Shown here in pieces: positions 780 to 29,242 of a stretch of 29,872 bases of DNA. Under the pieces are notes generated by a model. The model was not told the DNA's origin, did not search any database, and worked only from the letters and a program-made list of their open reading frames with translations. The stretch lies in IMG/VR virus record IMGVR_UViG_3300046789_000071, positions 1 to 29,872 of that record, one strand, 5' to 3'. Position numbers and translations under genes: made by a program. Every line of letters begins with the position of its first letter. Position 1 is the first letter of the stretch. Source of the DNA: a virus. Its lineage: Duplodnaviria; Caudoviricetes.

Positions 780-2444
780 TCATCCCCGTCGCCTCGGGTC
801 CCACGTGTCGCGCATCTCGTATGGGTCGACCATCGGCACGCGCAGGTCGGGCGGCGGCGGTGGCGGCGGCTGCGGTGACTGCTGGTCGTGTGTCCAGACG
901 GGCTCCCATACGCTCAGCGTGGTCGCATCGAAGCGGTCACTCGAGCGCTTCAAAATCCGGCGTATTTCATCTTTGTCGATGAGCACAAGCCGGCTTCGGT
1001 CATCGACTGACCAACGCATCACGTGCATCTCGCCGGCCAGCTTCGGGTCGGACAGGATCGCGCCGCCCGCTTTGATCCAGCGCTCAAACGATGCCGCTAC
1101 TTGGTCGCGCACCATCGCGTAGTTGTCCGCCTCACGGAATGGTCGGACCATGCCGCGGACGCCGACGAGCTTGAACGCTGTGGGGTTATTGTCGACGAAC
1201 GTGCGCATCACACCGTAGTTCTCAGCACCGACGGCGCCATCACGGTCGAGCACGACGACGGGCACTTCACCGTCGCGCTTGTGTGCACGGATGACCATGA
1301 GCACGTGCCCGAGCACGGCGTTTGCGGTCAAACCGGTGTGCGCGTCGAGCGAGAGCTGCCGATAGCCACGACGCGCGGAGATCGCCGTCTCGTCGCCCTT
1401 GGAGCCTGCGCCGGCTGGGTCGACGCCGATGTACAAACGCCCGGCGTCGAGCGCGTCTTCAATGCGACCTTGCGCGGTCACGATGAGATCCATGGGAAAC
1501 AAGCGCCCGATCTCGGCGACGCAAAACTTGCCGAGCACGCGAACCATGAAAAAAGCCGAGTCGCGTCCGTACTCGCGCTCGAGCTCGGCGATGTACTCGC
1601 GCGTCGCCAAGCCCGGGATCACGATGCGCCCGGCGACGACGTTCGGTGATTCCTCCGACGAGATAGTCAGTCGGTGATAGACCGACTCGGCATCGTTGAA
1701 GATGTCGTAGAAAAATCCGTGATTTCTCGTTGGATTCGAGATGCACACGACCTTGCCGCCGCCGCTCAAGTTGCCGCGTATGGCTTCGTATACGAGGTCG
1801 TCGATGCCTGAGCACTCATCGAGCAAGTACAGGTTGTTAGGCCCTGAGATGCCTTGCACCGCTTCGGGCTCGCGCGAGGTAAAACCGAAGATCATGCGCG
1901 AGCCATCGGCGCTCGTGATGCCTGTGCGTGCGAGCGAGCCGTTGCGCCCGAGGTCGATGAACGCCGAGTGCGGGCACGGTCGCGGGCCGTGAGGGTTCGA
2001 TCGCTTGCACTCGACGCACCGTCCGGCGTCAACGAGCAACTTTTGCAGCTCGAACCACACGACCTTGTTGAGCTGTCGGTCGGTGGTCGAGCTCAGGATC
2101 GTTTGCGAGCCCGGCGTACTGCAGTACCACCACAGCGCGAGCGCTGCGATCGAGCGCGTCTTGCTAGTCTTCTGGCCGGAGCACACCGAAACCCTGTCAT
2201 GGTCGCGCACCGCCTCGAGGAGCTCGGTCTGCCGCTCCCATGGCTCGAAGCCGAGGATGTCGCGACAGAAACCAACCGGGTCCAGCCGATAGCGATCGGA
2301 CGGCCACGTGATGCCCTGCTCTTCAACCGTGCGTTCACGCACCGCCCGCCCGAGGTCTCCGGCGAGTGTCATGTATGGCTGGTCTAGCTTGCTCGGGCGA
2401 CCTAACCGGCGTTTGATAGCTACGTCGTTGCTAGGACTCGTCAT
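780..2444 (-). CDS. terL: Terminase large subunit
   Basis: Walker A-like VCSGQKTSKT, Walker B LYLLDE, motif III ISNP, RNase H-like nuclease IGVDPA...DRFDA. Start uncertain (2444 chosen; 2372 or 2513 possible). Confidence 0.92.
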   Translation of the reverse strand: MTSPSNDVAIKRRLGRPSKLDQPYMTLAGDLGRAVRERTVEEQGITWPSDRYRLDPVGFCRDILGFEPWERQTELLEAVRDHDRVSVCSGQKTSKTRSIAALALWWYCSTPGSQTILSSTTDRQLNKVVWFELQKLLVDAGRCVECKRSNPHGPRPCPHSAFIDLGRNGSLARTGITSADGSRMIFGFTSREPEAVQGISGPNNLYLLDECSGIDDLVYEAIRGNLSGGGKVVCISNPTRNHGFFYDIFNDAESVYHRLTISSEESPNVVAGRIVIPGLATREYIAELEREYGRDSAFFMVRVLGKFCVAEIGRLFPMDLIVTAQGRIEDALDAGRLYIGVDPAGAGSKGDETAISARRGYRQLSLDAHTGLTANAVLGHVLMVIRAHKRDGEVPVVVLDRDGAVGAENYGVMRTFVDNNPTAFKLVGVRGMVRPFREADNYAMVRDQVAASFERWIKAGGAILSDPKLAGEMHVMRWSVDDRSRLVLIDKDEIRRILKRSSDRFDATTLSVWEPVWTHDQQSPQPPPPPPPDLRVPMVDPYEMRDTWDPRRRG

Positions 2445-2453
2445 ATGAGACTG

Positions 2454-2531
2454 TCTACCGCCACGCGAGTAGATACTGTCAGGTCGACACAAAAAGCACA
2501 CTAAATAACGCATCTACCGCGCTAGTAGATA
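2454..2531. promoter_or_regulatory. Two related palindromes TCTAC-N10/N7-GTAGA in the divergent terL/portal intergenic region
   Basis: TCTACCGCcacgcgAGTAGATA (2454-2475) and TCTACCGCgctAGTAGATA (2513-2531), with an A-rich stretch between them. Confidence 0.55.
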
Positions 2532-26643: not shown

Positions 26644-26727
26644 GGGCCGAGTCTGGAAATCAAGGCGACCGAGGGTGTGCTCCGCTTCGGAGACCAGCAC
26701 ATCGAAGCGGAGCACACGGTCGCACTC

Positions 26728-26895
26728 GAAAAACCCACGGAAAAACCCACGCCTGTTTGACGCTACGTTCTAAGTATGCGAAATCGCGGGTCTGCACCCA
26801 TAGCTCAGCCGGATAGAGCAGCGGCCTTCTAAGCCGTTAGGGGACACAACAGTTACATACAGTTAGACACCGTTTGTACCTAGCGTGGGTTTTTC
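26728..26895. other. attP: arm-type repeats flanking a tRNA-derived core
   Basis: GAAAAACCCACG twice in tandem (26728-26751) and an exact inverted copy (26884-26895). IHF-like TAAGTATGCGAAA at 26771-26783; ACAGTTA twice at 10-bp spacing (26849, 26859). Abuts the int stop. Confidence 0.85.
26794..26841 (+). tRNA. 5' half only of tRNA-Arg(UCU), att core
   Basis: GCACCCA-TA-GCTC-AGCCGGATA-GAGC-A-GCGGC-CTTCTAA-GCCGT-TAGG. Anticodon TCT at 26828-26830; no T-arm or 3' acceptor strand follows. Confidence 0.9.
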
Positions 26896-28106
26896 GTGTT
26901 ACGCAGTGGAACGGGCTGCTTCTCAAGCCCCGCACGCATCTCTTTGTGTAGTCTGTCAACACCTCTCGATGCGTAGTGACTCGTGGTCGTTTGCACGTCG
27001 TCGTGGCCGAGCATCTCGGACACTTTCTCGATCGGCCACTCGTGACCGCTCGCGAAGAACGTGCCCTTGAGCAAGTGCGTCGCGCAGGTGTGTCTGAGAT
27101 GCATGAAGTGAATGTGGTCGCGAATGCTGGCGAGTGTCCGGTACCCGGTGCGCACAACTATCTCGCCGTTCTTGCGGCGTCGCTTGTCCGTCCACCGAGC
27201 GTTCGAACTATCGCAGCGGATGCCGCCGTCATCGCCGGGGAACACCACGCCGGCAATCGGCGCAGCCGGCAAGCTGTCTCGATACCGGCGCAGCGCGGCG
27301 ACCAGCTGCGGCAACATCGGGATCTCACGTTGCGAGCTCTGCGTTTTCGTGGGCGCGTCGTACGACCAGCGGATGTGCAGCTCGGGCTCGTCGCCGTCCA
27401 GGCGGACAACGTTCTCCCAACGCAGCCCCCAAATCTCGTCGACGCGCAGCCCGGCGTAGATGCCGAGCGCATACACGGCACGGTGCTCGTCGATGAGCTC
27501 GGGCAGGGCGAAGAGCCGATCGATCTCGTCCGCGTGCAGGTGCGGTTTGCGGTCGCCGTCCACTCGCTGCTTGATCTTGCGGACCTTTGGGATCTTGGTC
27601 CCGCGTGCCGGGTTGCCTGTGGGCAGTCCGGGCACCGTGTCGAAGAAGAGGGACAGGCGCGAGCGGACCTTCTGCGGCGTCCGCTCACCGATGCGCCGAC
27701 CGGTGTCGACCTTCTCCGCGCCGCCCCCTGCGAGCGGCGCATGGTGCAGCGCCGGCTTCTTCACAATCTCGTCGAGCAACTGCTGGACGTGCTCGCGCCG
27801 GATGTCCTTCGCGCGCATGCGATAGAACTTGGCCGGCCGGATGTGTCGGTCCCACAGCGACCACTCCTTATCGAACATGCTGACGTTGCCGCGGCGCTTA
27901 CGGTGCAGCTGCTCTTCGTTCTGCATGTACGCCTCACCGAGCTCGCCGAACGTGTCGCCTGTCCGCTTCGCATCGTCAATCAGCGCTGCTTCGATGACGC
28001 GCCACGCTTGCTCTTCACTGTCGAAGGAGCCGAGGCGTTCGCGTCCGATACGCGCAAGGTACTTGTCGCCGCGCCGCTCGACGGCGCCGGTCTTCTTTCT
28101 GGGCAT
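26880..28106 (-). CDS. int: Tyrosine integrase
   Basis: AGLRVDE (R), TKT (K), HLRHT (HxxR), LGH, SHY (Y); AGGAG RBS. Confidence 0.95.
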   Translation of the reverse strand: MPRKKTGAVERRGDKYLARIGRERLGSFDSEEQAWRVIEAALIDDAKRTGDTFGELGEAYMQNEEQLHRKRRGNVSMFDKEWSLWDRHIRPAKFYRMRAKDIRREHVQQLLDEIVKKPALHHAPLAGGGAEKVDTGRRIGERTPQKVRSRLSLFFDTVPGLPTGNPARGTKIPKVRKIKQRVDGDRKPHLHADEIDRLFALPELIDEHRAVYALGIYAGLRVDEIWGLRWENVVRLDGDEPELHIRWSYDAPTKTQSSQREIPMLPQLVAALRRYRDSLPAAPIAGVVFPGDDGGIRCDSSNARWTDKRRRKNGEIVVRTGYRTLASIRDHIHFMHLRHTCATHLLKGTFFASGHEWPIEKVSEMLGHDDVQTTTSHYASRGVDRLHKEMRAGLEKQPVPLRNTKNPR

Positions 28107-28107
28107 G

Positions 28108-28353
28108 CTAGAAAACTCCTTTGCGCGCTCGTCGCGCGCGTACTAGCTCGAAGTCCGCAGCTGTTGGCTGCGCTTTCTTATTCTGCCGAACCGCCGGCTC
28201 AACGCAAGGGCCCGCAACGGTCTCAGTCACCGCCGCCGCCTTGGCGACCCTGCGCATGATTTTGTGGAAGAGCAGGTCAGCGACGCGCTGCGCTAGGCGT
28301 TCGACGTCCGCGTCGGACAGCGTGTGAGAGGTGTCGTTATCGTTCGCTGCCAC
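28108..28353 (-). CDS. Small protein upstream of int (possible directionality factor)
   Basis: GAGGGG RBS plus GTG; stop 1 nt before the int ATG. Position only; no clear winged-helix Xis motif. Confidence 0.5.
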   Translation of the reverse strand: MAANDNDTSHTLSDADVERLAQRVADLLFHKIMRRVAKAAAVTETVAGPCVEPAVRQNKKAQPTAADFELVRARRARKGVF

Positions 28354-28369
28354 GGCCGCCCCCTCGCTG

Positions 28370-29242
28370 TTAGTTGTCCTCGTCGCGCTTCTTCGTGCCG
28401 GTCTCGAACAGACCAAGCTGTCCGTCGTGCTCGGCGAGAGCGTGCCGAGCGGCGCGAAGTCCGCCCAGCTTGCGAATCACGTCGACCTCCCGAGCGCGCA
28501 ACACAGCGAGCGCGTCGGACAGCTGCGACACCGGGAGCATCCGCCACGGCTTGCCCTTCGTTCCCCAACGCAGCACTTCGGCGAGATGGTTGCGGATGCC
28601 GGCCGATGCGCGCTCAACCGGCGTCCGGACACGTCGCCGTGCTCCTGTGAGGGAGAGCGCTTGGCCGGCACGGCGCTGACGCATCGGCTTGTCCGGCCAG
28701 TCGCCTGCGAGCACCTCGAGCAGCGCTTGGCGCTTGATCGCCATCGTTAGCGCGTCGTACTGCGAGTCGGAGATGATGGCGCCCGGCGTGGCGTTCGTGT
28801 TAGCCGGGATGGTCATTGCCTGCTCGATGAGCTGCTCGAGCCGGCCGAGGCGATCGGACAGGTTGGCGTAGTCGGCCGGAGTCGACCGTCCGATCAGGCG
28901 CTCACGGAGCACGCGCGTTGCCCAGATCCGGAACTCGGTGCCGCGACGGGACTTCACCCGGTAGCCGACGGAGATGATCGCGTCGAGGTTGTACAACGTG
29001 ACCGTGCGCCGCTTGCCGTCGCCAGCAACGTACAAGGATTCCTTGTGAGTTGAATCCTGCGTGATCTCGCCGTCCTTGAGAGCGTTGCTCAGGTGAAGCG
29101 CCGCGTTCTGCTGCGTCGTCGTGTACAGCTCGCCGATCTGCGACTGCGTCAACCACAGGTCGTCGCGGTCGACCGCGACACGCAGTGATATCAATCCGTC
29201 GCCGCTCTTGAACTCAACAACTTCCGCTGATTGCTCACTCAT
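28370..29242 (-). CDS. RhuM-family N-terminal domain protein (antirepressor-like architecture)
   Basis: LWLTQSQIGELY...YNLDAIISVGYRVKSRRGTEFRIWATRVL is the RhuM signature; GGAGG RBS; unrelated C-terminus. Confidence 0.82.
   Translation of the reverse strand: MSEQSAEVVEFKSGDGLISLRVAVDRDDLWLTQSQIGELYTTTQQNAALHLSNALKDGEITQDSTHKESLYVAGDGKRRTVTLYNLDAIISVGYRVKSRRGTEFRIWATRVLRERLIGRSTPADYANLSDRLGRLEQLIEQAMTIPANTNATPGAIISDSQYDALTMAIKRQALLEVLAGDWPDKPMRQRRAGQALSLTGARRRVRTPVERASAGIRNHLAEVLRWGTKGKPWRMLPVSQLSDALAVLRAREVDVIRKLGGLRAARHALAEHDGQLGLFETGTKKRDEDN

What the first reader, a model, noticed from the sequence alone, without database searches (positions are those of the whole stretch)
26728..26895. 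attP carries the 5' half of tRNA-Arg(UCU), so integration would put the host tRNA behind phage DNA
Seen: 5' acceptor strand, D-arm and anticodon arm of tRNA-Arg(UCU) with no T-arm, flanked by 12-bp arm repeats in inverted orientation, one of them inside the last int codons. Established: most tRNA-targeting tyrosine integrases carry the 3' part of the tRNA, so the host promoter keeps driving the restored gene. Inference: here the restored tRNA would be phage 5' half plus host 3' half, cut off from the host promoter and dependent on phage upstream sequence. A TTGACG sits at 26757-26762, but I see no canonical -10.
Basis: partly seen in the sequence, partly recalled or inferred. Interest (0 to 1): 0.8.

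Follow-up and report, generated by a model that had tools for sequence, protein, structure and literature searches.

The report
Phage attachment site, reversed tRNA half
A soil phage carries the front half of a bacterial arginine tRNA gene beside its integrase, so on inserting it would likely rebuild that tRNA behind its own DNA and a predicted phage promoter, an uncommon but already described way of integrating.

Summary
Observation confirmed. 26794-26837 is the 5' half of tRNA-Arg(UCU), with no T arm, between three exact 12-bp arm repeats next to a tyrosine integrase: an attP. Ten other phage contigs with related integrases also carry 5' halves and nine carry 3' halves in the same architecture (25 loci read); the label needs 4 changes on the integrase tree. 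In two public runs the phage left-arm contig abuts a low-depth contig that continues as a tRNA 3' half pairing 7/7 with the phage acceptor strand: either the predicted junction or the host gene. No complete lysogen was found; 0 of 94 related integrase loci in Polyangiales genomes are of the 5' type, and they belong to other clades. The motif may still be only att architecture. The 5' type is known: 159 of 3919 Islander islands, Zhao and Williams 2002, and junction-verified pelagiphages. This scan found it before on other DNA. New member of a known kind; interest 0.3.

The parts
26670..26722 (.). Strong hairpin just outside the int-distal arm; likely a terminator or retroregulation element for int read-through (inferred)
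   Evidence: 20-bp arms, 90% complementary; z about -6.5 on both strands; hairpin-like sequence at the same place in L002 and L003 read by eye
26728..26751 (+). Two tandem 12-bp repeats, likely integrase arm-type sites
   Evidence: tandem repeats at this position in relatives, with sequence changing as the integrase changes
26757..26785 (+). TTGACG, 17 bp, TGC-GAAATC: predicted promoter for the rebuilt tRNA; overlaps a conserved TGACNNTACG box and an IHF-like site
   Evidence: 11.6 bits against a Polyangiales tRNA-promoter model, 60th percentile of cross-validated host scores; 0 of 398 background windows score as high; TGAC and TACG invariant in 7 of 7 aligned 5'-type arms; a similar box also in 3'-type L009 and L010
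26771..26784 (+). IHF-like site, left (consensus recalled, not tested)
   Evidence: sequence; near-identical element in both arms of 3'-type L012 and in 5'-type relatives
26794..26837 (+). 5' half of tRNA-Arg(UCU): acceptor 5' strand, D arm, anticodon arm; att core, with the crossover likely in loop 26826-26832
   Evidence: identical 43 bases in phage contig L002; 1-2 mismatches to full bacterial tRNA-Arg(UCU) genes
26851..26866 (-). IHF-like site, right, inverted (consensus recalled, not tested)
   Evidence: sequence; aligned in relatives
26884..26895 (-). Single inverted 12-bp arm repeat inside the last int codons
26880..28106 (-). Tyrosine integrase, 408 aa, pointing at the att site
   Evidence: PF00589 E 2.7e-16; phrog_1 E 3.5e-40; R221, K254, R338, H368, Y378 invariant in 26 of 26 aligned proteins

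Best explanation
This is the likely attachment site (attP) of a temperate tailed phage: it holds the 5' half of a tRNA-Arg(UCU) gene, and its tyrosine integrase would cross over in the anticodon loop of the host gene, leaving the whole tRNA behind the phage's int-distal arm, where a predicted phage promoter would transcribe it. Shown: the half tRNA, the repeats, the integrase, the same layout in related phages, and a matching 3' half abutting the phage contig in two runs. Inferred: the crossover point, the host (probably order Polyangiales), the two junctions, IHF binding. Least sure (about 55%): that TTGACG-17-TGC-GAAATC is the working promoter, starting a few bases before 26794. The other junction would keep the host promoter (in about half of Polyangiales loci also tRNA-Pro(UGG)) in front of a 5' stub that faces the end of int.
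For: (1) Anatomy: double arm repeat, box, IHF-like site, tRNA piece, anticodon loop, inverted IHF-like site, inverted arm repeat; the same order in 5'-type and in 3'-type relatives, only the tRNA piece is turned round. (2) Of 25 phage or metagenome loci with related integrases (L002-L020, L042-L047), 12 carry a 5' half (one repeats L004, one is this phage), 9 a 3' half, 3 none, 1 is cut short. Targets differ: Arg UCU, UCG, CCG, ACG, Thr CGU, Lys UUU. (3) The 5' halves are nearly invariant to the end of the anticodon loop and drift right after it, as expected if only the part before the loop must be kept. (4) L004's record is a complete genome with terminal repeats and has one tRNA match, the 5' half. 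(5) Contigs bridge the unsplit attP in runs X2, X3, X4 and X6; X2, X3 and X6 may be this DNA's source. In X1 (also a possible source) and X5 the phage left contig ends at 26836, and a second contig (73 nt, depth 2.6; 145 nt, depth 2.7) begins at 26807 with no mismatch and runs on as variable loop, T arm and an acceptor strand that pairs 7 of 7 with 26794-26800; that acceptor is found in only 3 of 49 held tRNA-Arg(UCU) rows. (6) Promoter model from 94 Polyangiales tRNA upstream regions: window 11.6 bits (host median 10.8 cross-validated); 7 of 11 5'-type arms score 10.8 or more, 0 of 9 3'-type arms exceed 6.8, mirror arms reach at most 8.6; p 0.002, and 0.006 with one arm per cluster. (7) Precedent with sequenced junctions in pelagiphages.
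Against: No complete lysogen or left junction was found. 0 of 94 integrase loci read in Polyangiales genomes are 5'-type (67 full tRNA convergent, 14 3' pieces, 13 none), though these lie outside the window's clade. The box-plus-tRNA pattern hit 0 of 351 genomes and only known attPs or unrelated tRNAs among 6 viral hits. The exact 43-mer is in none of the genomes scanned, so the host is not identified; 8 of the 11 near matches carry labels outside Polyangiales (one of them, G003, falls in that order's sample). In one search no host-upstream branch is seen, so the low-depth contig may be the free host gene with its upstream branch pruned, and 2 of the 4 runs laid show no such contig. The TTGAC box and the bases at -12/-11 also occur in 3'-type arms (L009, L010, L012), G at -12 is rare in host promoters (6%), 4 of 11 5'-type arms score low, and the model was seeded with the E. 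coli consensus.
Confidence: 0.8

Rival explanations
1. Same reversed integration, but TTGACG...GAAATC is only att architecture (an accessory-protein box plus an IHF site); the rebuilt tRNA is made by read-through from phage genes upstream, or only weakly. This is a variant of the best explanation and shares its probability.
For: The box is in 3'-type arms, where it cannot drive a tRNA (L009 has the same TTGACG; L010 a similar box), and 3'-type L012 has a nearly identical IHF-like site. L043, L047, L002, L020 score 4-6 bits. No sigma-70 match by the strict scan.
Against: 5'-type arms outscore 3'-type and mirror arms. A strong hairpin at 26670-26722 lies between the nearest upstream phage ORFs and the arm, although it has no U tract on the + strand.
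Confidence: 0.35
2. The site is real but these phages seldom form stable lysogens: the rebuilt tRNA is under-supplied, or the phage persists mostly free.
For: 5'-type sites are 12 of 25 in viral and metagenome loci but 0 of 94 in genomes. tRNA-Arg(UCU) matched once in 70 of 71 genomes with a match (one of the 71, G126, is unpublished), and only it reads AGA (established). attP-path contigs are deeper than the junction-like contig.
Against: The genomic integrases are other clades and MAGs often lose prophages and tRNAs; the half tRNA and an intact integrase are kept across many phages; contig depth is no measure of cell share.
Confidence: 0.12
3. The piece is a left-over (captured junction DNA, assembly chimera, or a tRNA-half RNA gene) and not an attachment core.
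For: No lysogen seen; the record is a linear fragment.
Against: Independent assemblies hold the same joint (L042); relatives carry halves of six different tRNAs at the same spot between arm repeats, and sister clades carry ordinary 3' halves there.
Confidence: 0.05

Closest known systems
Islander islands with a 5' tDNA fragment, anticodon-centred site A (Hudson, Lau, Williams, PMC4383910; read parts 1-2 of 3)
   Same: Tyrosine integrase, tRNA target, displaced 5' fragment; 159 of 3919 islands have a 5' fragment and 2083 are anticodon-centred.
   Different: Islander maps integrated islands; here only the free attP is in hand, from an uncultured soil phage.
[quoted passage not shown]
   Same: Recombination with the 5' part of a tRNA gene, cited as considerably less frequent. 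Recalled, not read: the Mesorhizobium loti element carries a promoter with the 5' fragment.
   Different: A cryptic element in an alphaproteobacterium (recalled); here a tailed phage of another lineage, with the promoter candidate overlapping att sites.
Pelagiphages HTVC021P/022P/109P/120P (bioRxiv 10.1101/410191, section 11 and passages) and HTVC028P (PMC8477408, passages)
   Same: attP holds the 5' end of a host tRNA (Cys, Leu, Arg, Asn); the gene is split and completed by the phage's 5' part; junctions sequenced or PCR-verified.
   Different: Podoviruses of SAR11; the word 'promoter' does not occur in either main text, so tRNA transcription in the lysogen was not addressed there; supplements not seen.
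Ordinary 3'-type tRNA-targeting integrases of Polyangiales (this work)
   Same: Same broad integrase family, overlapping tRNA targets including tRNA-Arg(UCU), similar arm and IHF-like layout.
   Different: They leave the whole tRNA behind the host promoter; they are 25-37% identical to this integrase.

Membership tests
tRNA-targeting tyrosine-integrase attP | Adjacent tyrosine integrase with catalytic residues | tested here: met
   PF00589 above cut-off; R221, K254, R338, H368, Y378 invariant; the His of HxxR is M335 here and mostly R or K in relatives
tRNA-targeting tyrosine-integrase attP | End fragment of a tRNA gene, not a whole gene, next to int | tested here: met
tRNA-targeting tyrosine-integrase attP | Arm-type repeats on both sides of the core | tested here: met
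   three exact 12-mers; binding by Int not tested
tRNA-targeting tyrosine-integrase attP | [quoted passage not shown] | tested here: inconclusive
   no exact 43-mer in genome contigs; 1-2 mismatches in 11 genomes; exact 30-base overlap with a matching 3' half in runs X1, X5
5'-fragment (reversed) class | Fragment runs from the tRNA 5' end to the crossover | tested here: met
5'-fragment (reversed) class | In the lysogen the 5' fragment lies upstream and the whole tRNA at the far end | tested here: inconclusive
   junction-like contig in 2 of 4 runs; 0 of 94 genome loci, all other clades
5'-fragment (reversed) class | Element supplies a promoter for the rebuilt tRNA | tested here: inconclusive
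   host-like score, but motif shared with 3'-type arms
Anticodon-centred site A | Strand exchange across the 7-base anticodon loop | not testable with these tools
   indirect only: conservation ends at the loop, identity ends 4 bases after it
Usual 3'-fragment class | attP holds T arm and acceptor 3' strand | tested here: not met

The most novel reading that the evidence does not exclude
One integrase lineage flips its direction of integration at tRNA anticodon loops again and again (at least 4 changes), and can afford to because the att arm already holds a TTGAC box and an IHF-like site that double as a host-type promoter. The host's only AGA-reading tRNA would then be made from a promoter that Int and IHF sit on, so that att-site occupancy sets the tRNA supply of the lysogen, while the orphaned host promoter fires antisense into int.
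Probability: 0.2. Interest if true: 0.62.

Novelty: new member of a known kind. Interest (0 to 1): 0.3.

Why it matters
It adds a phage clade from soil, probably of myxobacteria-like hosts, in which the rare reversed type is common and sits beside ordinary sisters, a good set for asking how integration direction switches and who transcribes the rebuilt tRNA. Prophage finders and host-prediction tools that look only for 3' tRNA ends would miss these sites. The basic arrangement is known, so the surprise is modest.

Tried and rejected
Host by exact match: none in genome contigs; a 16-base piece of the loose end hit 4 viral contigs, all non-tRNA chance matches. Close integrases in genomes: best 271 bits in 401 genomes of the order, nothing closer in 32 of one family or 401 of the phylum; only 4 candidates a genome were scored in the large searches. 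I read 94 integrase copies from the 117 places listed; the weakest and some contig-end places were not fetched. L021-L030 (weak hits) were only motif-scanned. L179 has an IHF-like stretch before a full tRNA-Arg(UCU), but no integrase on that contig: not counted. L020's ARAGORN 'tRNA' is a 5' half with no T-arm motif. AGA coupling: int has 4 AGA of 50 Arg codons against 3 of 334 in 12 other genes (Fisher p 0.007), but integrases that target tRNA-Arg(UCU) are no richer in AGA than others (15/506 vs 64/3332, p 0.40): rejected as a rule. Expression: no RNA holder listed. Loose ends at 90% likeness were mostly other organisms' tRNAs. Literature: searches gave 0 papers; others gave listings only for the rest; Williams 2002 and Zhao and Williams 2002 are not held. 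No paper on tRNA transcription in a 5'-type lysogen turned up in searches, which is no proof of absence. No look-alike earlier notes by place.

Full report
Setting. The window is a whole linear virus record, 66% complete by CheckV, with terminase, portal, protease, capsid, sheath, baseplate and fibre matches and a 408-aa tyrosine integrase at 26880-28106 on the minus strand.

Observation. 26794-26837 is acceptor strand, D arm and anticodon arm of tRNA-Arg(UCU), with no T arm. The 12-mer GAAAAACCCACG stands twice in tandem at 26728-26751 and once inverted at 26884-26895, inside the last int codons. Between repeats and core lie two inverted IHF-like stretches (consensus recalled) and, on the left, TTGACG at 26757. 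A strong hairpin lies just outside, at 26670-26722. A second assembly of nearly the same phage has the same att region (L042), and public contigs bridge it in four runs, three of which may be this DNA's source.

Relatives. A protein search gave 30 relatives; scans of viral and metagenome contigs gave 25 usable loci. Twelve carry a tRNA 5' half after int (one repeats L004, one is this phage), nine a 3' half, three none, one is cut short. In the closer relatives the order is the same: double arm repeat, a TGACNNTACG-like box, IHF-like site, tRNA piece, anticodon loop, inverted IHF-like site, inverted arm repeat. The 5' and 3' types differ in which way the tRNA piece points. The whole cassette is also inverted relative to int between this phage and L004 (62% identical integrases), with the repeat encoding the same C-terminal K-N-P-R either way. 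On a 32-protein tree the 5' label needs 4 changes, in all bootstrap trees examined; direction and order of events were not tested. Among seven aligned 5'-type sites the tRNA is nearly invariant to the end of the loop and drifts after it, which points to crossover in the loop. L004's complete 110-kb genome has no other tRNA match.

Host and junction. The exact 43-mer is not in the genome collection. Near matches include Polyangiales, and 90 of 401 genomes of that order hold related integrases against few in the wider phylum sample, so the host is probably of that order (inference). There tRNA-Arg(UCU) matched once in 70 of 71 genomes with a match, follows tRNA-Pro(UGG) in 16 of 31 distinct loci read and has no tRNA behind it in any; a reversed insertion would therefore cut off this one tRNA. 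No lysogen of the clade was found: of 94 integrase copies read in genomes, 67 face a whole tRNA in the usual way, 14 a 3' piece, 13 nothing, none a 5' piece, and all fall outside the window's clade. In runs X1 and X5 (two studies; X1 may be this DNA's source) the exact phage contig from the left ends at 26836 and two contigs start at 26807: the phage right arm, and a low-depth contig that continues as variable loop, T arm and an acceptor strand complementary 7 of 7 to 26794-26800. The last 16 printed bases of that loose end can come only from the longer record in each run and are the same in both. No contig brings host DNA in from upstream. This is what the predicted junction (phage arm + whole tRNA) would look like in an assembly graph, but a free host gene whose upstream branch was pruned would look the same. 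X6 and X9 show no such contig.

Promoter. The strict E. coli scan finds nothing. A two-box model trained on 94 Polyangiales tRNA upstream regions (seeded with the E. coli consensus; 11.3 bits median against 5.3 for shuffled training) shows a TTG(A/C) -35 and a loose TG-C-TA -10 with A at -11 in 97% and T at -7 in only 35%. The window's TTGACG-17-TGC-GAAATC, ending 8 bases before the tRNA, scores 11.6, the 60th percentile of cross-validated host scores; none of 398 background windows reaches it. Seven of 11 5'-type arms score 10.8 or more; nine 3'-type arms reach 6.8 at most; mirror arms 8.6 at most (p 0.002; 0.006 with one arm per cluster). Against this: four of the seven are one clade, G at -12 is rare, four 5'-type arms score low, and both the TTGAC box and the GA of the -10 are parts of att architecture that 3'-type sisters share. 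I put a working promoter here at about 55%.

Mechanism. Int, with IHF bending (inferred), would recombine attP with the host gene in the anticodon loop. One end would read host promoter (often with tRNA-Pro), 5' stub, single arm, int end facing it; the other, hairpin, double arm, promoter candidate, phage 5' half plus host 3' half. Integration would also part int from the hairpin, as for lambda sib (recalled).

Comparison. Islander lists 159 of 3919 islands with a 5' fragment (PMC4383910, Table 1). PMC6563490 cites Zhao and Williams 2002 for the rarer 5' type; that paper was not held, and its promoter claim is recalled. Pelagiphages with 5' cores have sequenced or PCR-verified junctions. Five earlier notes of this scan describe the same kind on other DNA, one also with sister phages carrying the other half; they are unchecked leads, not support.

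Verdict. Real, correctly read, and a new member of a known minority class. What is worth keeping is the clade: many reversed sites, repeated switching, and a testable overlap of promoter and att sites. Interest 0.3.

Noticed in passing
window 26728-26895 vs L004 7290-7450: The att cassette between the inverted arm repeats is flipped relative to int in close relatives, and the repeat encodes the same last int residues in both orientations.
   Followed up: partly
L002 2935-3105 and flanks: A phage about 80% identical in neighbouring DNA carries the identical tRNA-Arg(UCU) half and similar IHF-like sites, but a 38%-identical integrase, other arm repeats and the opposite orientation: integrase and arms were likely swapped around a shared core.
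   Followed up: partly
window 26880-28106: int has 4 AGA codons (3, 338, 381, 385), one at an invariant catalytic Arg, against 3 in 12 other genes; not a pattern across relatives.
   Followed up: yes
window 780-2513: The large terminase match lies on the minus strand, pointing away from the portal and head genes on the plus strand.
   Followed up: no
window 28370-29242 and 28108-28416: A RhuM-family N-terminal domain protein and a 102-aa ORF of no known family lie directly upstream of int; the small ORF stops one base before the int start and could be the excision factor.
   Followed up: no
window 26670-26722: Strong hairpin beyond the distal arm, placed like a retroregulation element for int.
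   Followed up: partly
L015 about 1200-1780: About 500 bases with an ORF-like insert separate int from its att site (tRNA-Arg(CCG) 5' half).
   Followed up: no
L179 (G007:C958): A full tRNA-Arg(UCU) with an IHF-like stretch just upstream, possibly a relic of a reversed insertion; no integrase on the contig.
   Followed up: partly
L005, L007, L046: Three integrases of the same clade have no tRNA piece beside them; two keep the arm and IHF-like layout, so they likely target non-tRNA sites.
   Followed up: no
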